This document shows, piece by piece, positions 45,691 through 64,000 of a stretch of DNA of 64,000 bases. Where the stretch lies: the NCBI GenBank assembly GCA_000182565.2, contig KQ257465.1; one strand, given 5' to 3'. The DNA comes from Spizellomyces punctatus DAOM BR117 (taxonomy: Eukaryota). Numbering within the stretch: the first letter of the stretch is position 1; each line of letters begins with the position of its first letter. The notes under the pieces are model-generated. The model worked only from the letters and a program-made list of their open reading frames with translations. It was not told the DNA's origin and did no database searches. The translations under genes and the position numbers were made by a program.

Positions 45691-46907
45691 TCTCCCTTCA
45701 CCGCAGGCCAGAGCCAGATGCTCTCGGTCAGTTTATCTGCCTGGAAATGGGGCTCTGATGGGCCTGAAGGACAGGTCTAGGAGTAATTTTGCGATAGGTG
45801 GTTTTGACAGTTCCAAGCTAGTGACAGATGCAGGCAACAGAACAACTGTACACAGAGGCCAAGCGACAGATGCTGGAACAAGAAGCTCTTGGAGACTGAT
45901 GGCAGCTCGGGGACGGCAAAGTGCCAAGCGTTGAACGTTGTTTTTGGCGTGTGGGAAACAACAAAAAAGCGGTCTTTACGAGTACTCATCATCAAATGGC
46001 CTAAGCACATCGTGATGAATGTGGCCTGTGATGGACTGTGCCACCTGCGGGTTTTCAGGACGCTCTCAAAAGGAGACTCTGAACGCAATTGCTTTTTAAT
46101 GCCGATGATGGCGGTTTGGAATTAGCATTTTTGTAGCTCTGGTGTGTGCCTATCCCATTGGCCGTGTACGGTTTCTTGCGTACTGCTGCTGGGGCAAACT
46201 TATTGTTGTCTACTGCATTCCTTGCACGAGCTACCAGCATCTCTTTTGATTTTCAGTTTTTCTTGAAAACCCTAGCACTTTTATGCTCTTGCCCTCCATG
46301 GAGGTTTTTTTAGCGACCATCCACTGGAATGCTCATATCATTGCAGTCAAACGTTGCAACATTTGTGATGATTGGGGAAGTTCTGGCAAGAAATATATCT
46401 CTTACTCTCGACTCCTCGCTGTCTCTGCCTCTCACCCAAATGTGACTTTTTGAAAAAGTAGCTTACTTCAATTTTGCCATCAACAATGTAAACACTGTCA
46501 CCCTCGGTTGCCTTGGGGTGATGAATCATACCAATCAGCACAAGTATTTTGCTCTTCAAAAGGATAAAGGAAATGTGTGTACCAATCATCATTCTGGAAT
46601 AGTACAAATGCATATTCCATGCAGAAAGAAAATATTCCAAATAAGAAATCACGTGGATATTCAATACTGTTATTTAGAAAAAAGAATATTCCTACTATTT
46701 GTTATTAGCCATAGGTTGTGAGGAGATGCCCTCAAATTACATCAAATTACATAAAATATGATCGGGCGACAACAGGAATTATCCTTGGGGAAACATTATT
46801 TATCATTTGGTGTTTGTTCTGCATAGAAACAGTCTTTGACTCCTGCAGTTGGAATATAAAAATACAAGGGAACGCAAGCATTCTTCCCTTGGTTTCATAT
46901 CACAAGT

Positions 46908-48824
46908 ATGGAGAAGCAAGTATCTCCACTGCTCCCAACAGTATCCAAAACTGTTGCGTATCGCAAAAATCCTGCATCTCACCGATATCATATGCGCTTG
47001 CCGGTATGGAGAACGCTCGCTCTCTTGCTGGTCCTTATCAACACGTACGCCATTCCCCGCTGTGGACTGTATCCTCTCTTCAACACCCAACTTGCTACGA
47101 GAAATTCGCAGTACAGACAAGCTGCAAATCCTACGGACAGTATCCCTCAGCAGCGTGAGTTTGCGCCAGCTGGGCCGAAAAGGTTTACTGCCGTCATTAC
47201 GTGGGTCAATGGTAGCGACCCGCTTCACCAGCAGATGCGCTCAATATACGCACGGGAGGCACCACATGTCAACATGGTAAATCGGTTCAGAGATCTCGGT
47301 GAATTGAGGTACACCGTGAGAAGTCTGCAAAAGTTTGCCAGCTGGATCAAGGAAATTCTCATCTTAACGAGCGATTATCGGAACGTGGAATATGGATCCG
47401 ATCGTGGACAGGTTCCAATATGGTTTGCAGAGGTGTCCTCTGAAAGTGAACCAGTACCTCCCGTACGAGTAATTCATCATGACGAGTTTTTTGCAAACGC
47501 TCAAGGGTCGCTGCCGACATTCAATAGTCTGGCCATTGAGAGCCAATTGGGGAATTTGCCAGGGCTCGATGAGGATGTGAGTGTGACCTGCTCCACTGTA
47601 CCGTCCGCTGATCCCATTGCTGAACAGTACTCTCGCAACAGATCATGTTATACTTTAATGACGATATTACCGTCGGGCAGGCACTCCAATCATCAGACTT
47701 TTACTCTCCCGAGTCCGGATTTGCTTTCGCCATTCAATCTGATCTGCAGGTCAGCGCCTTTGACCGGCCGCCTCGCATTGAATCTTCTCAAGGAGAGTGG
47801 CCCGCTCTTGACTGGTCCAACTATTTACTCAGTGAGTATTGTAATGGAATCTTGGCTGTTCTGCTCTCAAGCCTAACTGTATCATTTTACTCCAGGTCAA
47901 AGATTTGGCAAACGACGACGGGGTTATGTCGCTCACAGCGTTAAAGCCTTTGCGACCCCTCTATTACAAGAACTGGCCTCAGATTTCCCCTCAGCCTTCC
48001 GACAGACGTCTCATCACAGGTTTCGCGGCATCGGTCACGACGTACACACTCCTTTCATGGCCGTGCACTATGTCCTGGAAATGCATCGCGAGAGTGTGTT
48101 GAAATACTTTGTAAATAACGTGCTAGATGAGAACGGAGATGGTGTTGTGGATGATCAGGAAGTGGAAGCATTGCAAAAATTGTCCTGGGACGCAGACTTG
48201 GTGAACGGGAACGGAATTCCTGTGCGGGAAAATCGGAGGACATGGGACTCGAGGAATGGCTACCCCCACATGACAGTCCAGCCAGAGGCAGGGAATGCAT
48301 GGACATACACTGATGGCACCCCACCTTCCCTCCGCAAATGCAGCTTTTCGCTTAACGTTTGCCTTCCGTCAGTGAGATCAGCTCAAGCGATTTTGCGCCA
48401 CATTGGCCGCGAACACATTGCTTGCGGAGACTGCCTCCTGAATACCATGGCCCGAGCTTCGGGCGACGCTGGAATCGACTCGTACCTCGTGCAAAACACC
48501 AAGCGCAACGTCAGCTCAAATCCGCTAGCTGAAGTCTCAAAATACAAATATTCGCTTACCTCACTATCTCTGTCCTTCCTGAAGCTCGAAAACGACGACT
48601 GCGCGACATGGAGATCTATGGAACTTCTGGCGGAAAATCCAACCGCAATAATATGTTTGAATGACGATATTGGCAGACCAGGTGCCGTGAACGGCATAAA
48701 GAGTATGCTGGAAGTGTTCTTTGCACGTCTAGGATTGAAGAATGACGGAGCCGCCATCAAAGAATTTGACGCATGTGCGCCAAGGAGTCGTCCAAGGAGA
48801 CCTATTCTCAGCGATTTTAGTTAG
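46908..48824 (+). CDS. Stealth-family sugar-phosphotransferase (XPT1/GNPTAB-like)
   Basis: CR1 FTAVITWVNGSDP, CR2 RFRDLGELRYTVRSL..LPTFNSLAIES..LYFNDD, CR3 YVAHSVK..HRFR, CR4 ICLNDD, and an N-terminal TM anchor. Confidence 0.9.
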
Positions 48825-51800
48825 GACGATTATGTACCGACTAGCAGCACTAGATAGTTTTGCCTGCCATTAGACGCATGCAGTTTACCCTTATCCGTGG
48901 AATAAATACTTGCTCGCTCGCAACAGGCACAATGGTTGCAAAGAATGTATGGTCGCTTTTGGGTCACTTTTCGGGTTGAATGGTGTGCACAACCTGAATC
49001 AGGAGGGCAATGAGCTACATCTTGTGGATTTCGTCAGTGTGAAACGGGTTGCATACCGTCGTCTTCTTCCCACGTAAGACCCTGGCCATCCTTTTTGTGT
49101 TGGCCCACCTGCAGATTGACCGGTCCGAAAAGCCTGTCATTCCAGCCAGAATGAGGTGACCGGCTCGTCTTTGCATCACTTTCCAGCCGTAGTGCTCATT
49201 GGCCTGAAAATTACAAACTTAGGTCACCAAACTTAGATATACCTAACCCTAACTAGCGTTCGGTGTTCGTGGAATGGTTTGCTAATGCTCCACAGTATCC
49301 GGACGTATCCTTCCGTGATAACTTTGCAGCATCATAAAAGGAGCTTAATCCTACTCGTGCTTAACAATGGTAGATGCCTCTGCACCAATGCTTCGAATCA
49401 GCGAATTACGGTGTAGTGCTTAGGCTACTATAGATAAACCCTAAATACAAGCAGGGCCGGTCAAACCACGGGTCTTGAGGGAGAACCTGGCCGATCACGC
49501 TTTCTTTTCTTTTCACTTAATTCTCGCAAGTGGACATGGCAACCCAACACTTTCAGCAACTACAAATGGCATATGAAGGTTTTTTTTCTTGCCACATGTC
49601 GACGGCGGATAGCCAACAGACCCGAAGGGCTTTGCCGCTCGCGGTCATGATCTTATCTTTTTTGCCCTGCATCAATTACTGGCTCCCTATTCCTCGCCAG
49701 ATGTATGCCGTGGGCGAATGCGAACCACTCTTTGCAAGCGCAGCGTCAGAGAGAAAGACATTGAATTGCGGAAGTGAGGGCCCGTCTGGTCCGCTGGCAT
49801 TATAGTGTACCGATACGACAAATGATCCATAGTTCTGCGTTTGTTCTCCAGGGATGATCGCGACGTGATAACGTGTCGGGAGCGAGAGGGTTACCCCGAG
49901 GGTAGCATCTGAAGATATCCTGAGCTTCTGGTGACCCTTGGGTGTAGCCGTGCGGGAAAGGGGGAGAGAGTAGGTGGAGTCCTGCTTTGGGGAGTCCATC
50001 TTGGCTGGCAGGATTCCTCTGCGGTCTTCGTTTGTCTTTGGACACCACGTAATGGTTGAGGGTTGAAGGGAGAGGTGGCAAAAGTGGGTGGAGTGTCAGG
50101 TCGAGAACTCTGTTTTTTTTCTGCCAGCGTCTGGGGGCTTGATAGTACGCCAGGATATCGTTTGGGTCGCGACCGATGATGGCCATGGGATTTGACACCT
50201 CCAGATGACCGACAGGAGCCGAGGCAGTCTGGTTAGCAGGCCGCGGGGCCGTGGCGACCATCGATGCGTCCCCATGTTAGTGAGCATGGTCCTTGAGGAA
50301 AACTCCTCAAAATTCCAATTGATAACATGTCGCTCTTTGAATAAACTGGGAGTTTCCCGCACTGCTGCTATACTGAGAAACGGGGAGACGTGCGGGAGGA
50401 AAAGAGGGACGTGTTAGCAGCCAGCGGCGTGAAACGGCGAGGTTTCCCTCACCGTTGGAGGTATGAAATACTGCTGGTGCTGCCGACGGGAAGGTGAATC
50501 AATTTGGGGATGATCACTGATCTACCGTTGATGATGAGAAAGATCGCACATTTAATAAACTCATTATTACCCGTTAACGAAGCATAACGACATAAGTTTG
50601 AGTCAGCGAATGCGAGTGCGGTGTTTACTCCTAAAGGAAAATGTCAGACATGAACGCAACTGAGCAAGATATTTGCAAATATGGACAGTAACCCAACAAA
50701 ATGTTCCTAAACCGCTGGCCGATGGCACATTACCGGCAATATCCCAACGTTCACAAAGAGCCAAAAAGACTAAAAGTTTCTCCCAAGGCACTGTCTTGCA
50801 GATATTGTCTAACTTTGCCTCTCAATTTTTGGACAATATCAGATAAAGACTCTCTCCGCGCGAGATAAAAATGCTACCGGCCAAGAAAGGTTTAACTACG
50901 GGCCTAGAACGAACGATATCAGCACAGGGGCGATTCCCCAGTCATCGAGCGCATCTATCGTCAACTGATTACATGTCGTATCTTGGATGGCAAGAACATC
51001 CCTATCCTCAATGCAACCGGAATGACTCCGTTGAACATTATACGAATGGCTATCAAAAGATAGGGATGGATACCAGTGTTGATTGATGGCGGGTGAGGAG
51101 CTAATCTGCAATATGCTGCAAGTGCCCATATCCTGCCGGTACCACCTGTGAAGCGATCAGTCGTTACGCAATGAGTTGATGTTGATGAAGCGGGCATTGA
51201 GCACAGGGTTGTCAACATTGCCAAACATCCTAGAGTAATAAGCACAGAACACTGTCGGTGGACGCCCATAGATGTTGCTATAGGTGCTGGCATAACATAC
51301 GCACATCAGAATTCAGAAAAAAAGTGGATGTATAATTATGCGATATATGCGTACAATCACCATGTAACTAGCCACATAATCCTGGAAGAACCCAAAATTT
51401 GGGACTTTAAGGAATCGGGTGTGATCAGCCTCTTAGTTAAAATCATGAAACATAATACTTGTCCTCTAGAGTCGCCCTAAGGAGCTGCTTGTAGATATTC
51501 CTGCTTCAGCATACACAGAACTTCCTTCGCGATCACACCGAGGGGTTTCCATTTGGATTCAGTCGAAGATAAATTTGTAGTATAGGGTCCCCCACCGTCC
51601 AGAACGCTTCTAGCTTAGGATCGATACCGCAACATTCAAAGTCTAGTTTAAATCTATTTTCTTCTATTCAGCGCAGCAACTATTGGTGACCCCATAGGTT
51701 TGAAAAGGATTGATCTTGAATCTGGGAACTGTCATTGGCGTTCTCCCAATAGTTTCATCACCACTTTCTCTGTATATGTCTTTAATGCAATCGAAGATAT

Positions 51801-52752
51801 ATTTGCTGTTTAAAGAGATTCACAGAAGATTTATTGGTACAGACACTAGAGCAGGGCATATTCGTGACTTCGTGACTTCACAGTCAGATAATCAGTGCCT
51901 GTGCCTGAGTAGAACTAATGATGTATGGTGAAAATATACACAGATGCGCTATATGCTTTTCTACTACGTCTAAATCTATGGTTATACTCTACGCACACTA
52001 TCTAATATAAGGTATTGGCGTTCTCTCATAATTGATGAGATTCTGCGTGTCAATATAAAGACCCAGTCTAAAAATTGTCGGTGCTATCCCATGACAGATT
52101 GCAATTGCCTTTGGCAGGCTTTGAACCAAAATCCATGAGTACGGCGCCATCGACGACTTTGTCGATGGGAGAACCAGAGTCGTCAGCGGTGGACTTTGTG
52201 GAGAACTTGAAAAAGCCTGCCTTTTTTGAATTCGTCCGCCAGATCTCAAAGTTGCAGTCTGCCGGGCGAAATGTTGGATCTTTGAATCTTCTGAAAGCCG
52301 TGTTGGGGATGTTGGAGTCCGAAGGAGCATCTTGTAATGCCGGACGTTGTATGTAAGATCCTTTGAGAAGGCGCCACGAGTATAACTAATATTCACGGTA
52401 TCTTACCAAGAACGTATATGCGTAAAGTATTGTCGGCTCTCACTTTGAAGTGCTCCTGGATAATCCAGAGAATGAATTTGACCGCGTAGGGATGGTCCCC
52501 GTCAACCCTACCGCCTCTCCATTTGCCAGTGATCACAAAAACATCGGCTACTCATGCAGATTAGTATTGCATCAGGCGGTAGTAGTCAAAAGCGTCCGAC
52601 AAGGTTCAACCTACCGTTTGTAAAACCAGAAACATCAGCTCTACTGCCGGTGTTTTTACTGCCGTGGTGAGCAACCTTCACCAAGTGCGAATCTCTCCCG
52701 GTTGTAAACCTTGCGAAACTTTGGGCAATCACATCACCTGTCAGAAGCAGTT

Positions 52753-53647
52753 TCACAGCTCCAAGATGAGGCTGGGTGACAATGCTGATATCTGACCGTT
52801 AAAAATAAAATGCAAATAGTAAGAATAGCTCCATTGACCCCGAGGCACAAACTTCAGCCTCTCACAATTTTTTAGAGGTGCCACGTCGAGTTTGCTATCC
52901 GGGAGCTCTCTCTCATCAAGAGCGACAAATGGGCTGCTTGAACATACGGGTGCAATTCCTAGGGGGGCATTTTCTGCCGGCATGCATTGTTCATCTGCAA
53001 CATAACTTGAGAAGGATCTTGTCACAAGGGGCTCTTGAGTCGTGACCCTATCAGGTCTAGTGCCTCCGAAAGACCGCCTCCCATATATGTCGGTAAGCTG
53101 ACGGGTCGGCGGCCACAAGACATCGGTACTTCCGGAAACTGCCAATCTAAAACTTTGACCAGGAGGTCGACCGCCGACATAACCAGGTGAAACTTGTAAA
53201 CCATTGTCGCTGGAGCGTTGCCACAGCTCAAACAAAATGGATGTGAAGGCATGGCCTTGCTTTCCTGCAGAGTCAGGATTGACCAATGCCATGCTGTCCA
53301 CCCACGGCTCGTTCGGAGGCGTGAGACCGGCAGCAGTAATGATATCCCTCCATTTTTTCTTTGTGTCAGGTAGTCGAAAAGTCTTTGCTTTGGGACCAAT
53401 GAGCGGAACTACGGAGTGGGCAAGGAAATTTACAGCCTTTGTGTAATCGTTCTGTCGGATGATGATGGCTTAGAGTCGGGAAGCTAACCATTCTAGAATC
53501 AGCGTCCATTCTACTTACATGCTCGGTCGCACTGACGATGGTTCTCGTTGATATATCCATGGGGTTATTCCAGGTCATTGGAGCTAAAGGCCGAACAATA
53601 ACAGATTCATTCAGCAGACTGTGGAGGTCGCTATCCTTTTCAGGACC
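52753..53647 (-). CDS. Coding exons of an orphan gene (possibly the 3' part of the 54019-57181 gene, or a decaying paralog)
   Basis: Open frame GPEKDSDLHSLLNESVIVRPLAPMTWNNPMD, a GTAAGT..ACAG intron near 53518-53452, then about 200 open codons NDYTKAVNFLAHSVV..DSMALVNPD.. Confidence 0.4.
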
Positions 53648-54018
53648 CTACCTTGAAGAGGGACCCAACGTCCCCTAGGTCCGAGATTGTCACCGCCAGA
53701 TCTGAGTACTTTCAAAAACGACGCAAAGTGATCTGAGACATATCTTGAGCAATTTGTGCGGTTGCTCCCAAACTCAGAAGACTACGTTACCTTCGTCATT
53801 GTGCGTAACCATAATCTGCAACGTATGGGGTCAATCGTATGTAAAATTGAGAGAATTCATGGCAAGCCGCAAATGGGACCATCCCATCCCCACCGTACCT
53901 CATCGAAATAGTAGTCCTTTTCGGTACCATCAATAACGATAGGTCCAAGCTGTTGCTTGAAGACCTCAGTTGATCTCGTGTGTGTTTTACCTCCGTCTAC
54001 CCAAATGCGACGTCTAAA

Positions 54019-57000
54019 TCAGAGCAAGAAGCGATGACAATACTTTCTATGAGACGGAGAACTACACAACTGCTCAAAAAAGGTTGTGGTAACTGACCTT
54101 TCCTTCAGCGTGCACGCGTTGGGATAGGCTTTGACATTAGTACTGCTCCATACGACTGGCACCCCATTTTGCATCAGGTTCTGACATTCATATCGGACAT
54201 GTTCTTGGACCATGGAATCAGCTTGTCCATCATTGACGACATACAGGTTGATCCACTCAACCTCTTGAGGCACTGGTCTTCTAGTGACAGTGACTGTCAC
54301 CCTAACGCACAACAACCCACGAAACCTCTTCAGAAACGGTTCTCCGTTTGGATCCTTGTCAGCGTCCTCGTAATCCTTGTCGGGATCATCTTCACCTGGG
54401 TCCTCTGGCGGATCGGGGCCGTCTTCAGGTGGGTCATCCGGATTGTCGGGGTCTACCGGGTCATCATCTTCAAAGTCTGAGCGAGATCGTCTGCCTCTGG
54501 TCGTGACTGCGTGTTTGACGCATCAGGACTGCAAAGAAAAAAAGTTTCGAAAGTAGGGGCTACCATGGTCTCTAACTTACGAATTTGATTCTGCTCATTT
54601 ACTCCTGTTGAAGGATTACCGTTCCAATAGCCATTGCTAGGGTTAAGGCCTGTCGCAGTCGCCCGACCCAAAAGGTCTTCAGCCACCGGGACCATATTGA
54701 TCCCGCGAGAGGCAGTGTATATGTTCATAGCAGCAAAGGCTGCAAGACCTTCAGGATTGTCCAGATATGCGCAACCCCGCACAACCTCGCGCTGGGCTGG
54801 TTTTGATTGCATGCATGAGCCTATCACCACATTTTCAATATAATCATCAAGCAAAACGTCTTGTACCTGTTAAACCTGCTGCCAGGTACTTTCTCAATTT
54901 GACAACGGCAGTATCAAAGTCTCCGACGTTGGTGTAATCGGATATCATGCTGTTAATAAGCTGAGGGAATACATCCACCACGCGCCGCAAACAGTTCCCC
55001 ATAACCATCAGCGCCAGGCCTACTTGTTTAATTGCAGCGTCCCAGCGGCCGCCTGTATCGCACGTATCCGAATTATACATCACTTTCAAAGTTTGAACAA
55101 TGTCACGGAATGTAACACCTACATAACGAAAAGATCAGTTTCAACAATGTCCTAATGACCCTTGATCTAATACCACCTACATACCGCCGGCAAACTCATC
55201 CGAAGCACCTATGGAGAAAGAGCGATATGAGCTCGGAAGAGGTGGGCCAGGTGGGAAGCGTGAAAACAATGTCATTACCCTTGCTATAAAACGTAGTTGC
55301 AGCGTCATTTCGCTCGATGGCAACCGAATCTGTCGTAGAAATGCGGCAAACGGCCTTGTTGGCATCGTCCTCATTGGGCATTACCGAAAATGCCGAGCAA
55401 CCCGGTGAGTGGACGCAAAGTTTGGCGCAATCCGACACGGACCCAAGAGGTTCCTCAAAGGAAGAAGCTGCCGCTAAACTTCCGGGAACCGGGTCCCGGA
55501 ACTTTAATGCCTCACAACAGCATCCTTCAGTAACTTTCCAGCACAGCGATGAACACCAAAGAAGTGGAAAATCCCCACAACCGCAACTCCCATCACGACC
55601 AATGTCGACGCATGAATTGCCATCTGAAAAAACTGGATAAACAAATCTGTCTGCGTACGCTAAGCGGAGCATGGAAACTCACGAACTCGGCGACCGTCGT
55701 GTGAGCAGGTATGACTAGCCCCAGTTGATTGAAAGCCGCACGAATCGGACCAGTACAGTAATAAGGAGCATTTAGGAGCTGGTTGATCGGTGGACCAGAC
55801 AACAAAATCCACTGGCAGCAGATCCCCTGACGGACCAAGTTCTATGATAAGAAATGCAATCAAGCAAGACAGCATAACATCATTCTTTTCCTATACCCGT
55901 TGATCGAAGTGTTTCAATCGGATGTCTGAAATCCTCTACAAACCAAGTAACAGTGCCCGCCAAGGTGAGAACAAAGCTAACCAAGTCGAATAATGAAGAT
56001 GTGTAGAAGCAGGGTTAATGCACCGACCGGAAGTGATGTCGCAGGAAAAATAGTTGATATGCAGCGCCGTTAAAATGATACTGAGAAGCACGGTCAAAAC
56101 CTCGACTATCAATCAGGATAACGGTGAACATAAAAATGGCAGGAGATAAGACGCAAAATTCTGTCGCAGTGCGATGAAATGTTCTATACACGAATAATAT
56201 CAAAAAGGAACAGCAAGACCTACCAAATATTTCCACAGCAGCAATTGGAATACCAACGGGACCAAGGACGACACCACCGATCCGCAACGCAGTAAAGACT
56301 ATCCTGGCGCCGCCCCTGATCACCGCTTTTAGGACGGCAAGGCCTATTCTCTGAAGTTTAGGCATTCTTGCTGGCGTCAACCTGCTTCGAGAGGGGCCGT
56401 CGAGGAGTTCATAGGGCCAGTTTGTCATTTCAAATGAGTCGGCACGCGCAATTAGCTCGTGCGTATGGGCGGCGATGACCGTACTCATCTCGATGGGCAT
56501 GAAATCGCGCTTGGTAAATTGGCTGGTATCGAAACAACTGCAAAGATCTTGGGCCTTCGCGGTGGAAAGACATTCCAGGGAACTCAAGATGCTGGCGTGT
56601 TTCATGCAAATGCTCAAAGCGGCTCGAAGCTCCAAATCACAGCTGGAAGGACCCAGTTCTTGAACCTTTCGGTCGATCAGATCGCAAGTGGCACCGTACA
56701 CGTCGTTGTTCTCGTCTCGCAGCTTGGCGTCTGCGGCCATACTACTAAGAGTCTCGTGTCGCAGGGTCCCAGTGTTGCCAACATGAACCATGATCTGCTC
56801 CACCAAGTCTTCGTCAGCAAAGTCGTGAAGGCCCACCGCACGCTTGATATGCACAAACTTGGGCACTTCTTCATTGTCGGCTTTTTTGCCGACACTTTTG
56901 TCGATGGAATTTATCATAGCCAAAATCTCCTCTCGATCCAATGAGCCATCGCCGTTGCCATCGTACGCTTGCAAGACCCTCAAGTAATTGTCTCTTCCGG

Positions 57001-57181
57001 ATTTATGCCTGTGACGTGTGATGGCACGATTGGCCAAATGGTTGACGAGATGGTCCGAAAGATCATACACAGGCTGCTGGGCTGTTGATTGCAGGATGGC
57101 GCCGCTGCTGAAAAGGCCCAACAGCAGCAGAAGCACTAGTCGCGGTGTTGAGTTCATTGCCCTCATCCGCATGCGACACAT
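54019..57181 (-). CDS. Large secreted orphan protein (signal peptide, EF-hand-like loop, PAN/apple-like domain, Asp/Pro-rich linker); may be disrupted
   Basis: Signal LVLLLLLGLFSSGAILQS, EF-like YDGNGDGSLDREE, PAN-like SVSDCAKLCVHSPGCSAFSV..CRI and DDDPVDPDNPDDPPEDGPDPPEDP. Most ORFs are joinable by GT-AG introns, but one junction near 54850 is not. Confidence 0.55.
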
Positions 57182-57916
57182 CCTTGTCGCTGTCGCAGAG
57201 ACTATGAGGACGTGACAGTGTCAGTTTGCACAATGAGCAGCCCTTTGCTAATCCTTGCTTGTATGAGCATTCCCCTCCATAAGGCCATCGTTAATCCCCG
57301 GCAAAATGGCACTGCAGTGCAAGCGTCATTATTCGTGGAGTGCATGCAATGCAAAAAAGGCTTGTGGTACAAGTGAGATCTTTCCTTTTGCAAACTTTGG
57401 AAGGATTTGAAATGGAAATGTAAAAGAGAAGAAGCATGCGGGGAGAAAAAAGCAAGCCACAAAGCCCAACATAAACAAAGCGGCTTTCCGGCTTGGCGAT
57501 CGAGTCCGCAAGACAAATTTTTGGTAAATTTGTTGCTTTCATTTCCCTGAATCCTGGTTCCCCGTGTCCCTGAATTATCGAACTCGTCCATTCTTCCGTG
57601 GCTTAAATTCTCAAGTAATATTCCACACACGTGGCTCCATGGGAAACAAAACGCTTGGTTATTCTCAGGGATCTTTCCACGTGATCTTCAAAGCCGCGCA
57701 CCTTCTTCATTCTTATTTCTTTACGATCAAAGCTGGTTCTATAAAAACGTCTATCTAGTATATCAAGTCTACAGATTATTACATTGGCCATTTGCAAACT
57801 CTGAGATGCGTCTGCTACTTAGAAGAATTTTGAGGTTATGGCATTCGTCATAAAAGAAAGAGGGTACATTTGATTAGTTCCAACATAAACAGGCATAGTG
57901 GCCGCGCACTTTGCAA

Positions 57917-60456
57917 TCAAGTGGGACGGGGAGAAGGAACAGGTGGCACCGTAACCTGAGGGGGCACAGTGGTCAAGTGTATAGCGGTTCTTGTAGTCGA
58001 CAGAGTATTCGTCGGTGTGATGCATTTTTGGGTATCCGCAGGAGCCCAGATACCTGCCGGCCCACAAAGAGCCGTTTGATTTCCTACCAAAGGCGAAGGA
58101 CAGGGGCCCGTGGCGTTCTGTCCCAGTGGCGTGCGCGGGAACACATCCGAGACGCAAGTCGACTCCTTGCTCCAAACACACTGCGACGTATCGACGGTAG
58201 TCCATTTGCCACTTGGAAGGCAGCGTGCCGTTTGATTGCCACTGAAGAGAACGGGACATGGAGCACTTGCGATTCCATTGAAAGGCGTTGCGGGAAACAC
58301 GTCAAATGCCGGGCATCCTATGCGATAGCACTGGGAGGTGTCGGGGGTAGCCCATATACCATCTGGATTACACCGAGCCGTCATGTTACCGGCAAAACCG
58401 TTTGAGCAAGATTGAGTTGCGTTCTGTGTGTAATTTTAGACCAAAGCATATGAGAAATAGCCATAATTGACAACTTTGTACAGTGGATCTGATAAACAGT
58501 ATCACGAGGAATAGTTTAGATACGTTACCTGTCCAGCCAGTTTACTCGTCCATCCTGCCGCTGTCGGGCAGACAACGATCGGAGGATTGCATGTGGATAC
58601 CACCTTTCCCCACAAGCCGTTCGATAGACACTCAGCGGTAACATTGCCGTTCGCATTACCATTTGCACAGGGTATCGTAGCACTTGCGTTAGCTGGGGTT
58701 GCAGTCCAGTTTCCAATATAATTCACCCCGTCTTGCGACATCATAGTGGCTGCGGAACACTTGATGTCCAAGGGCCACCCGCAGGCGCCAAAACCTTCCT
58801 GACACTGGGAAGGACTACAGTATTCGGACGACGCGGCGCACTGACCTGCCTTACCACAGCAGGCGGTTGGCCCACAGGAAGTCTGATTTACACTTGTGAA
58901 GCCGCAGACTGAAATGGTACCGTATTTAGCATAGGTAATGCGCGACGAGCAATCGGATCATCTGAGAAGATACCTGCGGTCTTGTCAAATGTCTGGGGGC
59001 CACAATCTCCGTAAATTGGATTACATGTGGTGCGATCACAAAAACTGCGGAAAGTCCCGCATTGGCCAATAGATGTATCACAGCACGTTCCTTTGGGACA
59101 TCTCCTATTTTCCGCAGTCGCGTAAGGACCACATTCTAAAACAAAAGTAATTAGCAACATGATTCTATGGTGTTTTCAAAGCCTAACGAACAGGTTGGCA
59201 GGCAAATGCTTACGATGATTCTGGTTGAAAAATTGAGTACATTGGCCTGGTCCAAAGCCTATCTGACATCCCGTGGGTGCGCCATTTTGGGAAGGCTTTT
59301 GTGGATCCGCTAGCATGCAATCAGCAAAGCCCAATCCACAAAGGCCCTGTCCGTTGCAGCAGCCGGTTGGACAAACAGCAAAGTTGGCAGAAGTAGCGCC
59401 ACATACTAAAATTGGCGCAATTGTGAGATTTACGTTCAAAGTTCGAGAAAAAAGAAAGCAAGTATATTGAGTGATAACACATAAAAGTTACTTACTAGCT
59501 TTTGGGTCGACAGTCCTGTGTGTACAAGGTCCATATCCGTAGCGGCAGTTGTCAGGACCGCAAAAGTCGGGACCTGAGCCGCAAAGTCCTTTCAAGCTGC
59601 AGCATTGACCATTCGGACATAACGGGGTGGCTGCCGCAGGCCCGCATTGTTCGGCTTGAGGCGATGCAGCGTAAGCATCAAAGGTCATCGAGGAGTTTGC
59701 CGGTTGCAGAGGAGGAACATAGGGCAGGTTGGGGATTGTGGGCAGGAGGATGGTTTCAACTGCATCTTGAACGGAATTTTCGCCGCAAATCCGAGTTCTG
59801 TAATACGTAAAGTGGGTAGTTAGAAAGTAGTAAATAAGCCATGAACCACAACAAACTACATGTAAGAGGTTGCCATACCTCAAAATGTATAACATCTGCT
59901 GGGCATTGGCATCGACCGGTTTCCTCAACAGGGTTGCGGCGAGGAAGCAACCACAAGCAAACTTTTTGTCCAGTACATCGAAAATGTTAGCCTTTGGATC
60001 GATTTTCGACAAGACATCTTTGACCTGCTTGACACAATTTGCACCGGACGCAGCGTCATTTGCACAGGGGAGTGCAGACGAAAGAACGAGATGGCGGAGG
60101 ATATAAGCAATGTTGGCAGTAGGACCCAGCATAAAATCCATGGGACAGTCCTTCTGGACCTGAAGGTTAAGGGCCTGTAAGGACTGCTGACAAGCGCCCT
60201 TGGGATCGCAGAAAGCCGCGCGTTCTGCGTCTTGATTCAATGAGGAGAGGTTTCCAAAAACAGCCGCGCGGCTGCACTGCAGCTGCATTCCCAGGGCGGC
60301 AGCGCAAGCAGGCGTGGGAACCTTGAACGCGGCGAGATCATTCGGAGTAAAGAGGGCAAAGGAAGACGGGATAGCAGCGATGGAAACGTCATTTGCTGCC
60401 GCCAATACGAAAGCTACGAGGACGGCGGCGGCCTGCCGTGCTGTGAAAAAAAGCAT
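57917..60456 (-). CDS. Secreted non-catalytic Cys-rich protein: N-terminal Cys domain + 4 hevein/CBM18-like + 4 HormR-like repeats + P/T tail
   Basis: Signal peptide; CAAALGMQLQC..FCDPKGACQQSL..LPCANDAASGANC; CG..CP..CC...G.CG units x4; C..W/FP.T......CP....G..TA.C...G.W...D.S.C units x4. Confidence 0.8.
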
Positions 60457-60582
60457 GGAGCAGCGACAGAAAGATGGACAGCTGTTGCTCGTGGCACTGA
60501 GAGCGAGAAGCTCCAGGCGACAATGCGAGGGAATATCCCGGAAGACAAACACGCTGCTCAACACGCTCGGCGGGGAAGCATT

Positions 60583-60752
60583 TCACATGATTGGATGCAG
60601 ATCTGCGCCTACAACAAGAACTAAATCGTGGAGAAAAAGTTTTGATCGGGGGGATTTGTCCCACGGACTCGGGCGGAATGGAATTCATCCATAAAAAAAG
60701 TTTTTTAGAATCATGGCTTGGCTTGCCTTCGTGCTTCAGTCACATGATTGGA
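60583..60752. promoter_or_regulatory. Duplicated 13-bp motif TCACATGATTGGA in a bidirectional promoter
   Basis: Exact copies at 60583-60595 and 60740-60752, each followed within 1-2 nt by GCAG. The motif contains an E-box (CACATG) abutting an inverted CCAAT. Confidence 0.55.
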
Positions 60753-60822
60753 AAGCAGTTGCTTGCAGGACGCTGTTCTTCCCAATTCCCTAGTGCTTGG
60801 GCCATTCCGGTTGCTGCCTACG

Positions 60823-63800
60823 ATGCGCATCCTGGCAGTATCCCTGGCTCTGTTGCTGGTGGTGGGCGGGACCACTGGGTCACCGTCTAGCACGAACTAC
60901 AACAAAACAAAGAACAAAGTGCACTTGTCAAAGAGATGCGCTGCAGGTCTCATCACTTGTGGAGAGGACTGTTTCGACCCGGCTTTGGGCGAATATCACT
61001 GTGTAAACGCTCCAGATGGAACACCTTTGTTGGTTCAAGGCCCCGGGTATAACCCCAACGATCGTAAGTGTCTCATGGGAGGGGAAAGGGTTTGGTCTGT
61101 GGGTTACCTTTCGTCCTCCTTCCGCCTTCCGACTGGTTCTCCCCTCAAAGTCACTAACTTATCCACATATCTTTACGCACAAAGCCGATGCTGAGATACT
61201 GCCCGCGGATATCACGGACATTGGAACTCCTACTGGCCAAACGAAGAAGATTACAATGACCAACAGATGTCCGCACAAAGTGTGGCCGGCTCTTCAGGGA
61301 AAATTCGGCGATCCTGTCCCGGCCGACGGAGGATTTGGAATGGGACCGGGTACGACTGTAACCGTTCACGTTCCATATAATTGGGAATCCGGACGGATCT
61401 GGCCGCGGACGGGCTGCAAGATCAACAATGGAAAAGTCTTTTGTGAAACAGGCACGTGCGGCATCAAAGAAAACGGCTACGGCGTGCAATGCAAGGGCAA
61501 TGGAGGAGTGCCGCCATACACCATCGTCGAATTTACTTTGCACGGGTACAAAAACCTTGATTACTACGACTTGTCTCAAGTAGATGGTCACAACATTGGA
61601 ATCGCTGTCGCAGTTGTGGGAGGTGATAAAATCAACGATCCCGATATGGTTGAGCCCAAATTTGACTGCGGAAACGCGGCGTGCAGGATGGACATTTCCA
61701 AATACTGTCCCCCCGAGTTGGCCTTTATGAGTAGTGACGGGAAAAGAATCGTGGCATGCGGGAGTATCCATAACGCTGTGGAAGACCTCGTCCAGAGGAC
61801 GTTGCATCCTGACCCTTTGAAGCCCCTCTTTGACGATCAAGTCAAGAGGTCGCTTGTTGGATGCACCTGTGACCCAACAGGAACTTACAACCACTGCTAC
61901 GCAAAGGTCGATAAGCGTCCTGAGGCCGAGGGGAAGCGATGCTATGTGGAGGACTGGCCTTCTGTCAAGGAGCCCGGCCCATGGCCTACCCGATACGACA
62001 AAGTCTTCAAAGACAGGTGTCCGCGTGAGTTCCTCGTGCACTTTGGGTGGCCATTCTGGATGTTCTTGGGAACATCGTCTGCCTTCCTTTACCTGTATTC
62101 ATACTTTTTGACAAATCATTGTAATCTTCAGTTGCTTATTCGTGGCAGTTTGACGACTTTTCCTCGACGTTCAATTGCCGAAACGCCGATTACCATATAA
62201 CATTCTGTCCAGCGGCCGAGTGCGGGAAGGAAGCAAATGGAAAGGAGTGTCCCAACAATGCATGCTGCTCTTCATTCGGGACCTGTGGAGTCACAGAGAC
62301 AGAATGCGGTGACGGGTGTCAGTCCAACTGTAACAGCTTGGACGATTTCCCTGGCCCTGGAACATGTGCGTCACCTCCTTTGACCATTGTTGTCGGGTAC
62401 TATAGCAATACGGCGTACGGACGAGGGGAAAACCTGCCCAACTGCAAAGGGACGTTGAAAGCGATGGCCCCGGAAGACCTCCGACCGACCGGTTTTACTC
62501 ATCTGAACTATGTAAGGTTACTTATTGATGTGGATTCCACAGAGCATAATCAGATCTGTGTGAGTCTCTCTCTGACAGACTCGTCTTCCACATTTAGGCA
62601 TTCGGTGCGATATCCGTTGACTTCAAGCTTACCACCACTCGAAACGAGGATGACGATCTCATCAAGAGGTTCAATGGACTCAAGAGTTCGAACGGGAACT
62701 TGAAGACCTTGTGGTCAATTGGTGGATGGGCCTTCAATAATCCAGGATCTGGGACGGAAACACGATTTTCCGACATGGTCTCGTCTCCGGCCAATCGAGC
62801 CACGCTCATTGGCGATATTGTGCGGACAATCCCTGGACGTGGATTCGACGGAATTGACTTTGTACGTTGATTCGTCCTGTCGTCAATGCTCATCACTCTC
62901 TACTGTCTTAACAGTGCCCCTTTCTTCTGCGTCTTGGAATTAATAGGACTGGGAGTATCCAGGCCCGGCGCGGGGTGGTAGGGATTCTGACCCCGCAAAC
63001 TTTGTGCAATTTCTCAAGGAACTCCGTCAGGCTTTTGACCGCAGCAATCTCAAACTGATCATTACTGTCACGGCTCCCCCAACTCAATTGAACCTTGCTG
63101 AATATGATCTGAAGACGTTAAAAGAAAATGTTGACTGGATCAACTTGATGACCTACGACTTTCATGGAGCCTCTCCCGCCGTTAACCAACCGGCGAATCC
63201 CGTCGACAATCGGCCACCACCCAATGCGTGGGGCAGCGAATCCTTGGGCGTCCAGCCGCACGCTAACAAATTTGATATCGACAATGCTCTGCGAGCGTAT
63301 CTCAAAGCCGGTGTTCCACGGGAAAAACTTGTCATGGGAATTGCGTTCTACGGTCGTTCGTACACGTTGATGCGTCCTGATTGCATCGACCCGGGATGTC
63401 CGTATTCCAGTGCCGGGAAACCGGGCGTGTGCACTAACGTCCCTGGGTTCATCAGTTACTCCGAGGTGCAGGCCCTCGATCGGACGCAAACTGCGGTAGA
63501 CAAAACTAGCATGAGCGCCGTAGCAAGTTCTGGTGATCAATGGATCTCGTAAGCAGACGATCTGATCGTTGTTCTAGATGTGGATTTAAGTTAACCAACT
63601 TTCACTAACTCACCATGCCGTCCTTTATAATATGCACCTCCGGCCTTTCACAGATATGAAAACCACGAAACAATTCAAGCAAAGATGGGCATCGCCGCCA
63701 AACAATGTCTCCCAGGTGTCGCCATTTGGTCTCTCGACCTCGATCCGGATGGTGTATTGCTTCTCTCTGTTACAGGCAATGCCAATACAGAGACTCCCAA

Positions 63801-63969
63801 TACAGGGTTTTGTACCGCTGACGGCCGCTGGAGAACGACCGCAGCTGGGCAGACGAGTTCCTACAATTGCCCATACGGAGAAGGATCGATAGTGCGACAC
63901 TGCGGCTCAGACGGCCGCTGGGGAGACGTGGTCAACAATTGTGCCGATGTCCATACTGGTGCGTGCTAG
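60823..63969 (+). CDS. Secreted thaumatin-like + CBM18 + GH18 chitinase fusion with C-terminal HormR-like module
   Basis: Signal peptide; thaumatin ([51 protein letters not shown]); CBM18 ([14 protein letters not shown]); GH18 ([26 protein letters not shown] across an intron, [32 protein letters not shown]). Confidence 0.9.
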
Positions 63970-64000
63970 CAAGGTGTGGGGCGCGGCTGCTTCTTTTCGT

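What the first reader, a model, noticed from the sequence alone, without database searches (positions are those of the whole stretch)
57917..63969. Divergent secreted gene pair: thaumatin-CBM18-GH18 fusion plus a non-catalytic partner, a candidate antifungal/killer-toxin-like module
Seen: two secreted genes lie head-to-head 366 bp apart, share a Cys-rich C-terminal module, and have a duplicated motif in the shared spacer. Established: killer-toxin-like (subgroup C) GH18 chitinases of ascomycetes carry SIGGWAF-type motifs plus CBM18/LysM and often sit head-to-head with a non-catalytic LysM gene. The partner's N-terminal Cys pattern resembles the N-terminus of those LysM proteins. Inference: this is an analogous system in an early-diverging fungus, with LysM replaced by hevein-like and HormR-like repeats and a beta-glucan-targeting thaumatin added. 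It may attack or remodel chitin-glucan walls.
Basis: partly seen in the sequence, partly recalled or inferred. Interest (0 to 1): 0.8.

Follow-up and report, generated by a model that had tools for sequence, protein, structure and literature searches.

The report
Chytrid chitinase and partner gene cluster
A soil chytrid fungus carries a linked pair of secreted genes related to the chitinase-plus-partner pairs that moulds use against other fungi, rebuilt with different sugar-binding parts, and next to it lies a third secreted gene ending in a nuclease-like domain that may be a toxin.

Summary
The pair is real. Gene A (+) and gene B (−) start head-to-head, 366 bp apart. One correction: the stop at 63969 lies in an intron. 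A runs about 0.9 kb past the window and encodes 1114 aa: thaumatin, CBM18, GH18, a HormR-like repeat and a C-terminal CBM52.

B (706 aa) is a homologue, not just an analogue, of the partners of group C chitinases. Its N-terminal domain matches, in both directions, the domain in front of LysM repeats in genes beside 12 of 40 C-type chitinase loci, and 0 of 40 other GH18 loci. Hevein and HormR-like repeats replace LysM.

A's GH18 groups with C-type chitinases (100/99) as a separate lineage. Both genes sit on one contig in three other chytrid assemblies, with consecutive locus tags in two. Geranomyces copies have lost the catalytic glutamate.

It was seen beside B only in two Spizellomyces species.

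Best reading: a module aimed at foreign chitin–glucan walls. A toxin-delivery role with C is open. No activity, binding or co-regulation is shown.

The parts
60823..64000 (+). Gene A, 1114 aa, continues about 0.9 kb beyond the window. Exons in window: 60823-61063, 61185-62024, 62132-62511, 62598-62861, 62947-63548, 63654-63958; intron from 63959. Signal peptide, KR37, small Cys module, thaumatin, CBM18, GH18, HormR-like repeat, conserved tail with RRQR 916-919, Pro/Thr linker, CBM52.
61262..62211 (+). Thaumatin-like domain of A (aa 107-387, split by one intron). R151, E196, D209, D214 and D369 are invariant in 8 of 8 aligned copies; their reading as the acidic-cleft residues is recalled.
62218..62331 (+). 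CBM18 (hevein) chitin-binding module of A, aa 390-427
62389..63744 (+). GH18 domain of A, aa 447-806; intact DGIDFDWE motif (aa 571-578) spans the intron at 62862-62946
63811..63945 (+). HormR-like four-cysteine repeat of A (aa 829-873), homologous to the four repeats of B
60457..60822 (.). 366-bp divergent spacer between the two ATGs; likely shared promoter (inferred)
60583..60595 (+). TCACATGATTGGA, copy 1 (holds an E-box-like CACATG and a reverse CCAAT; labels recalled)
60740..60752 (+). TCACATGATTGGA, copy 2
57917..60456 (-). Gene B, 706 aa. Exons 60456-59879, 59797-59496, 59405-59214, 59135-58974, 58908-58529, 58423-57917. No catalytic domain found; RNA 3'-end peak at 57401-58000.
59710..60369 (-). 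N-terminal helical Cys domain of B (aa 30-222), homologous to the domain in front of LysM repeats in partners of C-type chitinases
58772..59649 (-). Four hevein/CBM18-like repeats of B (aa about 243-457); three match PF00187 in the whole-protein scan, the fourth by Cys pattern
58010..58759 (-). Four HormR/Sushi-like four-cysteine repeats of B (aa 462-676)
52068..57172 (-). Gene C, about 1329 aa (public model starts at 57157), secreted, many short introns; splicing between 56223 and 55841 uncertain. EF-hand-like pro-region, KR105, KR216, hydrophobic helices, Cys/PAN region, helical region, acidic Asp-Pro linker, KR769, MBL-fold tip. RNA 3'-end peak at 51401-52600.
56225..56371 (-). Basic-then-hydrophobic helical stretch of C (aa 263-311). 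With aa 218-262 it is the most divergent region compared between the two Spizellomyces copies (71% against 89-94%).
55280..55447 (-). PAN-like domain of C (aa 490-545; E 0.006, below the Pfam cut-off)
52071..54324 (-). Metallo-beta-lactamase-fold tip of C (aa 771-1329), motifs VNDGQADS, WVDGG, THNDEDH, LLLTGD, KVAHHGS

Best explanation
A and B are the chytrid form of the group C chitinase plus LysM-partner pair of moulds, aimed outward at walls made of chitin and beta-1,3-glucan, most likely those of competing or prey fungi and their spores. Shown: the gene structure, the domains, the homology of both partners and the linkage. Inferred steps: (1) both genes are switched on together from the 366-bp spacer, perhaps through the repeated 13-mer; (2) both are secreted and A is cut at dibasic sites; (3) thaumatin, CBM18 and CBM52 anchor A on glucan and chitin, and the GH18 nicks chitin, although anchoring matters more than cutting; (4) B binds chitin through four hevein repeats and either shields the chytrid's own wall or concentrates A on the target. 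B's conserved N-terminal domain, kept while the sugar-binding repeats were swapped, is the likely docking or effector core.
For: The GH18 lies in a 100/99 clade with CBM18-bearing Dikarya chitinases, apart from two other GH18s of this genome, animals and bacteria (40 rows). C-type sequence signatures are in 7-8 of 8 chytrid rows, 18-21 of 23 Pezizomycotina rows and 0 of 4 other own-genome rows. A chytrid-only profile of B's N-domain hits ORFs next to C-type chitinases, best E 4.2e-8, reversed control best 4.5. After one iteration it hits 12 of 40 C-type loci (11 head-to-head) and 0 of 40 other GH18 loci; 11 of the 12 have LysM downstream in the same orientation. A profile started from a LysM partner without chytrid input hits all 5 B-family proteins at E 3e-7 to 1e-4, next best 19. 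In 2 of those loci the partner also carries PF12708 domains (GH55-type beta-1,3-glucanase, recalled), so glucan targeting recurs in the pair by another route. Linkage is seen in three other chytrid assemblies. Thaumatin is better conserved than GH18 (81 vs 53% to Geranomyces, 68 vs 59% to Rhizophlyctis). Literature: group C chitinases are induced by other fungi (bioRxiv 2024.10.25.620242); tal6 lies next to tac6 and is co-regulated with it (PMC4392113); Tal6 protects hyphae and raises mycoparasitism (PMC6773873).
Against: No activity, target or induction is shown. The function of the mould pairs is itself disputed: Tal6 inhibited germination of Trichoderma only, and protection was not detected in one study (PMC4392113). 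All 6 Geranomyces sequences read DGIELDWQ, so chitin hydrolysis is dispensable there. B and C have RNA 3' peaks in the one informative sample, whose growth condition I do not know. A B neighbour was seen for only 3 of 11 other A records, and orientation was not visible. Three of the 12 loci (L037-L039) look like one organism. The tree has no named group A, B, C-I or C-II references. Spizellomyces is described as a degrader of pollen and plant spores (PMC10103886, PMC6899921). Another chytrid has wall beta-glucan without FKS1 (PMC7341943), so glucan binding need not mean a foreign target.
Confidence: 0.5

Rival explanations
1. Three-part toxin delivery. A and B bind and open the target wall. 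Gene C is the cargo: it is cut at KR sites, its hydrophobic helices cross the membrane, and the MBL tip acts inside the cell as a nuclease or phosphoesterase. C would supply in trans the long tail that mould C-type chitinases carry in cis.
For: C is secreted, single-copy and directly behind B on the same strand. The same order holds in the second Spizellomyces species (tags g07204 and g07205). Its tip follows an acidic linker and a KR, and matches LmuA (E 4.5e-9), Avs1a (1.5e-5) and ComEC (0.002), and Lactamase_B clusters (0.94). A has only 288 aa after the GH18, against 541-1236 aa in 21 of 23 Pezizomycotina rows; 2 of 15 of those carry a NucA/NucB DNase hit (one above cut-off). In Chytriomyces the same thaumatin clade is fused to a hydrophobic segment and an HNH-like motif (motif reading recalled). 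Loss of catalysis in Geranomyces fits a carrier. B and C 3' ends have similar depth (26 vs 28-39) in one sample.
Against: C was found only in two Spizellomyces species: 2 hits among 8000 scored candidates in a word-limited search of 554-2000-aa proteins. The genes at the C position in Geranomyces and Rhizophlyctis were not seen. C has no detectable similarity to the tails of C-type chitinases or to 94 fetched loci. No immunity gene was identified. The MBL matches are short and far below family cut-offs, and MBL folds also act on lipids and small molecules. The splicing of the hydrophobic region is uncertain and the two public models differ. The tip is 91% identical between the two species, so no tip swapping is seen.
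Confidence: 0.25
2. Feeding module. A digests dead fungal spores, arthropod cuticle or callose-bearing pollen, and B helps hold enzyme or rhizoid on the substrate.
For: These genera are described as degraders of pollen, cellulose, cuticle and fungal spores (PMC6899921; PMC10103886). The catalytic motif is intact in 6 of 12 copies. Partner genes in moulds are induced on chitin (PMC7176902; PMC4392113).
Against: A nutritional chitinase should keep its catalytic acid, and 6 of 6 Geranomyces sequences lost it. The genome has other GH18 genes (10 matches at five loci). Feeding does not explain the conserved non-catalytic N-domain of B.
Confidence: 0.15
3. Self wall remodelling or developmental control during encystment, germination or sporangium opening.
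For: B is transcribed in the one informative sample. Tal6 inhibits self-germination (PMC4392113). Chytrid walls can hold beta-glucan (PMC7341943).
Against: The GH18 does not group with this genome's other chitinases. The fusion was found in only four genera, a patchy spread for a core process. Copy number varies (two tags in one Rhizophlyctis assembly).
Confidence: 0.1

Closest known systems
Group C (C-I-like) GH18 chitinase plus adjacent LysM protein pairs of Pezizomycotina, e.g. Trichoderma atroviride tac6/tal6 and Clonostachys rosea chiC1/lysm2 (PMC4392113, PMC7176902, PMC6773873; passages read)
   Same: Secreted CBM18-GH18 of the C-type clade, lying next to a secreted non-catalytic chitin-binding gene whose N-terminal domain is homologous to B's. 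Head-to-head in 11 of 12 fetched loci.
   Different: Hevein and HormR-like repeats replace LysM. Thaumatin and CBM52 are fused to the chitinase. The long C-terminal extension is missing. The GH18 is a separate lineage. The named Trichoderma and Clonostachys proteins were not themselves in my comparisons.
Zymocin-like toxin clusters (C-II chitinase + gamma-toxin + immunity +/- LysM), bioRxiv 2024.10.25.620242 and PMC13348850
   Same: A clustered secreted chitinase, a chitin-binding partner and a secreted neighbour with a nuclease-like domain.
   Different: No LysM in A. A lies outside the LysM-bearing GH18 clade. The candidate cargo is 1329 aa with an MBL fold, not a small anticodon nuclease. 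No immunity gene or virus-like element was identified. In the passages read, the only chytrid example is a Kappamyces VLE-like contig.
Thaumatin-like proteins (PR-5 family; PDB 3zs3, 2ahn, zeamatin 1du5)
   Same: Pfam PF00314 and PDB matches (E 3e-23 for 3zs3); conserved acidic residues.
   Different: Here it is a module of a chitinase; in Chytriomyces it heads a long toxin-like protein and in the rotifer Adineta it is fused to GH16.
MBL-fold effectors of bacterial defence systems (Lamassu LmuA, AVAST Avs1a) and ComEC
   Same: THxDxDH, TGD and HHGS motifs; weak profile hits in gene C.
   Different: Eukaryotic, intron-rich, secreted and placed at the tip of a 1329-aa precursor; scores far below family cut-offs.

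Membership tests
Group C (killer-toxin-like) GH18 chitinases | GH18 domain groups with group C | tested here: met
   100/99 clade with CBM18-bearing Dikarya chitinases. Caveat: those rows were classed by architecture; no named references were in the tree.
Group C (killer-toxin-like) GH18 chitinases | DxxDxDxE catalytic motif | tested here: met
   DGIDFDWE in A; intact in 6 of 12 copies, DGIELDWQ in the 6 Geranomyces sequences
Group C (killer-toxin-like) GH18 chitinases | CBM18 directly before the GH18, and a signal peptide | tested here: met
   PF00187 at 390-427; hydrophobic N-terminus, no dedicated signal-peptide predictor was run
Group C (killer-toxin-like) GH18 chitinases | Long C-terminal extension after the GH18 (typical, not universal) | tested here: not met
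   131-306 aa in 8 chytrid rows against 541-1236 aa in 21 of 23 Pezizomycotina rows
C-II / zymocin-like toxin cluster | LysM within the chitinase | tested here: not met
   No LysM in A by Pfam or by a LysM profile that finds the two control proteins
C-II / zymocin-like toxin cluster | GH18 inside the C-II clade | tested here: inconclusive
   A lies outside the clade of five LysM-bearing GH18 loci, in an unresolved three-way fork (quick tree); no named C-II reference
C-II / zymocin-like toxin cluster | Small secreted gamma-toxin gene beside the chitinase | tested here: inconclusive
   Neighbours seen are B, C (1329 aa), an unassigned ORF and a class C GPCR-like gene; small spliced genes were not searched exhaustively
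C-II / zymocin-like toxin cluster | Immunity gene | not tested
C-II / zymocin-like toxin cluster | Terminal cysteine linking chitinase and toxin | tested here: inconclusive
   C887 is invariant in 8 of 8 copies and lies 30 aa before the RRQR site; its pairing is unknown
LysM partner proteins of C-type chitinases | Divergent neighbour of the chitinase gene | tested here: met
   366-bp head-to-head spacer
LysM partner proteins of C-type chitinases | Cys-rich N-terminal domain | tested here: met
   Reciprocal profile hits with reversed-sequence controls
LysM partner proteins of C-type chitinases | LysM repeats | tested here: not met
   None in B; hevein and HormR-like repeats instead
LysM partner proteins of C-type chitinases | Co-regulation with the chitinase | tested here: inconclusive
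   One informative RNA run, 3'-biased; A's 3' end was outside the laid stretch
Thaumatin-like proteins (PR-5) | PF00314 domain with acidic-cleft residues | tested here: met
   153 bits; residues invariant in 8 of 8, cleft assignment recalled
Thaumatin-like proteins (PR-5) | Beta-1,3-glucan binding or hydrolysis | not testable with these tools
   Needs a biochemical assay
ComEC/LmuA/Avs1a-type MBL hydrolases (gene C tip) | Metal-binding motifs in MBL order | tested here: met
   Motifs at 800, 850, 888, 1151 and 1175 in both species; profile hits below cut-off
ComEC/LmuA/Avs1a-type MBL hydrolases (gene C tip) | Nuclease activity | not testable with these tools
   Needs an assay

The most novel reading that the evidence does not exclude
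A, B and C form a three-gene contact-toxin system of soil chytrids. A glucan- and chitin-anchoring carrier (A) and a chitin-binding co-factor (B), from a pair older than the chytrid-Dikarya split, deliver a separately encoded precursor (C). C's membrane-crossing helices release a nuclease tip of the kind bacteria use as suicide effectors in anti-phage defence. The Chytriomyces thaumatin-HNH fusions would be the one-chain version, making thaumatin a targeting head of a fungal polymorphic-toxin family, and B's N-domain the conserved docking module of all C-type chitinase pairs.
Probability: 0.25. Interest if true: 0.85.

Novelty: new variant of a known kind. Interest (0 to 1): 0.62.

Why it matters
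It extends the group C chitinase plus partner pair from moulds to zoosporic fungi as a nuclear, intron-rich locus. The paper read on killer-plasmid origins had only one tentative chytrid case (PMC13348850).

It also points to what is conserved in these pairs. The LysM repeats were replaced, while an unnamed N-terminal domain was kept. That makes the disputed role of Tal6-type partners testable by domain swaps.

I found no description of the thaumatin-CBM18-GH18-CBM52 fusion in the searches named in the full report. If gene C is a cargo, this is a new kind of fungal toxin delivery.

Tried and rejected
- Stop at 63969: rejected, it is intronic.
- Genes 'C' and 'D' as two genes: rejected; public models in two species join them.
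- SIGGWAF as a marker: rejected (3 of 12).
- P0128 as a B relative: rejected as a repeat artefact.
- DUF7729 for B's N-domain: Atlas score 0.89, a lead only; 0 papers hold the term.
- Structure of B: pLDDT 54. Foldseek gave hevein lectins and Sushi repeats. VIA-align gave HormR domains at Z 6.8 or less, which is within common background, and no clear match for the N-domain.
- Structure of A: pLDDT 42, not used.
- FKS1 glucan synthase: 0 candidates for PF02364 and PF14288 in the genome. There was no positive control, so this is not used as evidence.
- RNA: no RNA holder was listed. Of 4 runs laid, X6 gave reads, X7 and X8 gave none, and X1 (kind not on record, no joints) was uninformative. No splice joints were listed, so the introns rest on sequence and on public models.
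- Gene C relatives: none in prokaryote genomes by short patterns, none in PDB sequences, none in 94 fetched loci.
- Viral contigs gave 3 distant thaumatins and 11 distant GH18s, none with the B domain.
- Earlier findings of the scan: 4 look-ups were empty, and 1 returned 8 unrelated notes.
- PMC7389562 held none of the chytrid terms searched.

Full report
Observation. The two ATGs lie at 60456 (−) and 60823 (+), 366 bp apart. Gene B splices through five GT-AG introns to 706 aa, the same as public protein P0129. Gene A's six window exons match public protein P0121 over residues 1-877. Their source labels both as Spizellomyces punctatus proteins. P0121 goes on to 1114 aa: the apparent stop at 63969 lies in an intron that opens at 63959, and two more exons lie beyond the window. 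A reads: signal, small Cys module, thaumatin (E 9.5e-45), CBM18 (4.9e-9), GH18 (2.8e-67), HormR-like repeat, conserved tail with RRQR, linker, CBM52 just over its cut-off. That CBM52 binds beta-1,3-glucan is recalled. B reads: signal, helical Cys domain, four hevein-like repeats, four HormR-like repeats. The spacer 13-mer repeat is unlikely by chance: 1 of 500 shuffles, and 1 of 172 tiles, being the tile that holds it. Its function is untested.

Distribution and linkage. A search with the thaumatin-CBM18 region returned 11 proteins. Six are thaumatin-CBM18-GH18 fusions, from Spizellomyces, Geranomyces, Thoreauomyces and Rhizophlyctis; one cluster holds 7 Geranomyces records. A search of all 50%-representatives with B's first exon gave 5 hits, 4 of them true relatives. 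A and B carry consecutive locus tags and equal contig lengths in Geranomyces michiganensis (HDU86_005455/005456) and Rhizophlyctis rosea (HDV00_010360/010359). That is 3 of 11 other A records. For the other 8 I saw no neighbour, and I could not see orientation in any. In this genome the searches found A, B and C once each.

Place of the GH18. In a 40-row mixture-model tree, the five chytrid rows form a clade (100/100). It lies inside a 100/99 group with CBM18-bearing Dikarya chitinases and three unlabelled environmental rows plus one at its base, apart from animals, bacteria and two other GH18s of this genome. I dropped 31 of the 71 rows as redundant, long-branched or surplus. The sister is a Lyophyllum LysM-CBM18-GH18 (92/84, not starred), which also carries the HormR-like repeat after its GH18. 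A quick 43-row tree with 18 metagenome loci shows an unresolved fork of three lineages: chytrid plus Lyophyllum; chitinases with LysM inside; and chitinases with a head-to-head partner. No named subgroup references were available, so 'C-type' rests on architecture and signatures. The catalytic motif is intact in 6 of 12 chytrid sequences and reads DGIELDWQ in all 6 Geranomyces ones.

B is a homologue of the LysM partners. I fetched the best 80 of at least 582 GH18 loci from metagenomes; 40 scored as C-type and 40 did not. A profile of B's N-domain built from the five B-family sequences hit five ORFs at E 4.2e-8 to 0.029 among 19,119 ORFs; the best reversed control was 4.5. One iteration gave hits in 12 of 40 C-type loci, or 12 of the 25 with at least 2.8 kb upstream. 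Eleven were head-to-head and one on the same strand; 0 of the 40 other loci were hit. Eleven of the 12 have LysM repeats downstream; three look like one organism. As an independent reverse test I started from the stretch in front of the first LysM in locus L038 and iterated without chytrid sequences. The profile hit all five B-family proteins at E 3e-7 to 1e-4; the next session protein scored 19 and the reversed controls 0.12 or worse. L038 had appeared below significance, so the seed was not chosen blind. The loci are unlabelled; their GH18s group with named Pezizomycotina proteins. In L032 and L036 the partner also carries PF12708 domains, the GH55 beta-1,3-glucanase pattern as I recall it. 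So chitin and glucan targeting recur in the pair by different fusions.

Gene C. Behind B, on the same strand, lies an intron-rich gene from about 57157 to 52068, public protein P0142 (1329 aa). Its 85%-identical counterpart has the tag next to B in S. 'palustris'. It has a signal, an EF-hand-like pro-region, KR sites at 105, 216 and 769, hydrophobic helices, a PAN-like domain and an acidic linker. Its tip has the motifs VNDGQADS, WVDGG, THNDEDH, LLLTGD and KVAHHGS. The tip matches Lactamase_B clusters (0.94), Avs1a and ComEC and LmuA (4.5e-9), all as short matches; where a cut-off is given, scores are far below it. Splicing between 56223 and 55841 is uncertain and the two public models differ. 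Supporting a cargo role: chytrid A lacks the long tail of 21 of 23 mould rows; 2 of 15 such tails scanned hold a NucA/NucB DNase hit; and Chytriomyces fuses a related thaumatin to a hydrophobic segment and an HNH-like motif (motif reading recalled, no Pfam hit). Against it: C was found in one genus only, resembles no chitinase tail, and no immunity gene was identified.

Expression. One RNA run (X6, about 6% read) behaves like a 3'-tag library: a neighbouring gene shows poly(A) ends behind + reads, so the first mate reads sense. Minus-strand peaks lie at the 3' ends of B (26x) and C (28-39x). A's 3' end was outside the laid stretch, so A cannot be judged. No joints were listed. One sample shows transcription, not co-regulation.

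Mechanism. Most likely (0.5), A and B act on foreign chitin-glucan walls: A anchors through thaumatin, CBM18 and CBM52 and nicks chitin, and B binds chitin to shield the producer or concentrate A. Rivals are toxin delivery with C (0.25), feeding (0.15) and self remodelling (0.1). Gene structure, domains, homology and linkage are shown; secretion, processing, binding, target and co-regulation are inferred.

Literature seen. bioRxiv 2024.10.25.620242: parts 1-4 of 5 of the text. PMC13348850: abstract, outline and passages; 'thaumatin' and 'Spizellomyces' occur 0 times in its main text. Passages only: PMC7176902, PMC3689799, PMC4392113, PMC6773873, PMC7341943, PMC10103886, PMC6899921. PMC7389562: term search only. 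Searches for a prior description: thaumatin+chitinase+GH18+chytrid, 0 papers; Spizellomyces+thaumatin, 1 (69); thaumatin-like+chytrid+glucan+antifungal, 2 (89); Spizellomyces+CBM18+chitinase, 3 (110); MBL+polymorphic toxin+fungi+chitinase, 2 with 1 listed (71). I saw those hits as listings only; none suggests this locus by title or abstract start. The library lacks most subscription papers. I read no supplements, and trees or tables there may include these proteins.

Verdict. A new variant of a known kind, interest 0.62. The pair is a true chytrid relative of the C-type chitinase plus partner pair, with swapped binding modules. The three-gene toxin reading is the open, more novel case (probability 0.25, interest 0.85 if true).

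Noticed in passing
P0138, P0139, P0150 (Chytriomyces hyalinus): Proteins of 1210-1283 aa with a related thaumatin (two with the same small N-module as A), then a hydrophobic segment near aa 793 and an ECDHKLELQ...NLVYVDRDVNQAKG motif that I recall as HNH-like. Possibly one-chain thaumatin-headed toxins.
   Followed up: partly
P0137 cluster (Adineta steineri, a bdelloid rotifer): Thaumatin 46% identical to A's, fused to GH16; 5 cluster members. A candidate horizontal transfer, not tested.
   Followed up: no
L022:4203-5502 (+), G000:C4: Second thaumatin gene of this genome with the same small N-terminal Cys module, ending right after the thaumatin domain.
   Followed up: partly
G000:C10:188974-190683 (−) and C10:185270-186438 (−): Seven LysM matches lie about 2.5 kb upstream of another GH18 on the same strand; this GH18 is not C-type. 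A second LysM-chitinase neighbourhood, or one gene.
   Followed up: no
P0013, P0122 (Lyophyllum shimeji): Mushroom LysM-CBM18-GH18 proteins are sister to the chytrid clade and share the HormR-like repeat after the GH18.
   Followed up: partly
P0039, P0036 (Orbilia, Penicillium): C-type chitinases with a NucA/NucB DNase hit in the C-terminal tail, one above and one below the cut-off.
   Followed up: no
L032:3552-7637 (−), L036:4132-8744 (−): Partners of C-type chitinases that join PF12708 domains, the B-type N-domain and LysM (plus WSC in L032); a HET-domain gene lies next to L032's.
   Followed up: partly
window 57678: A relaxed form of the spacer motif (CAYRTGAT) also lies between gene B's end and gene C's start; 3 of about 6 plus-strand window matches fall in these two regions. 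Post hoc and weak.
   Followed up: partly
window 46860-48945 (+): Stealth-family gene, the most strongly tagged transcript in the laid stretch (202x), with poly(A) ends at 48942-48945.
   Followed up: no
window 18203-18691 (+); L016:5535-7649 (−): A HET-domain ORF in the window, and a class C GPCR-like gene (7tm_3 plus ANF receptor) about 3 kb downstream of gene A's end.
   Followed up: no
L025-L027 (viral contigs): Three contigs labelled GVMAG (giant-virus bins, recalled) encode distant thaumatin-like proteins, 27-30% identical.
   Followed up: no
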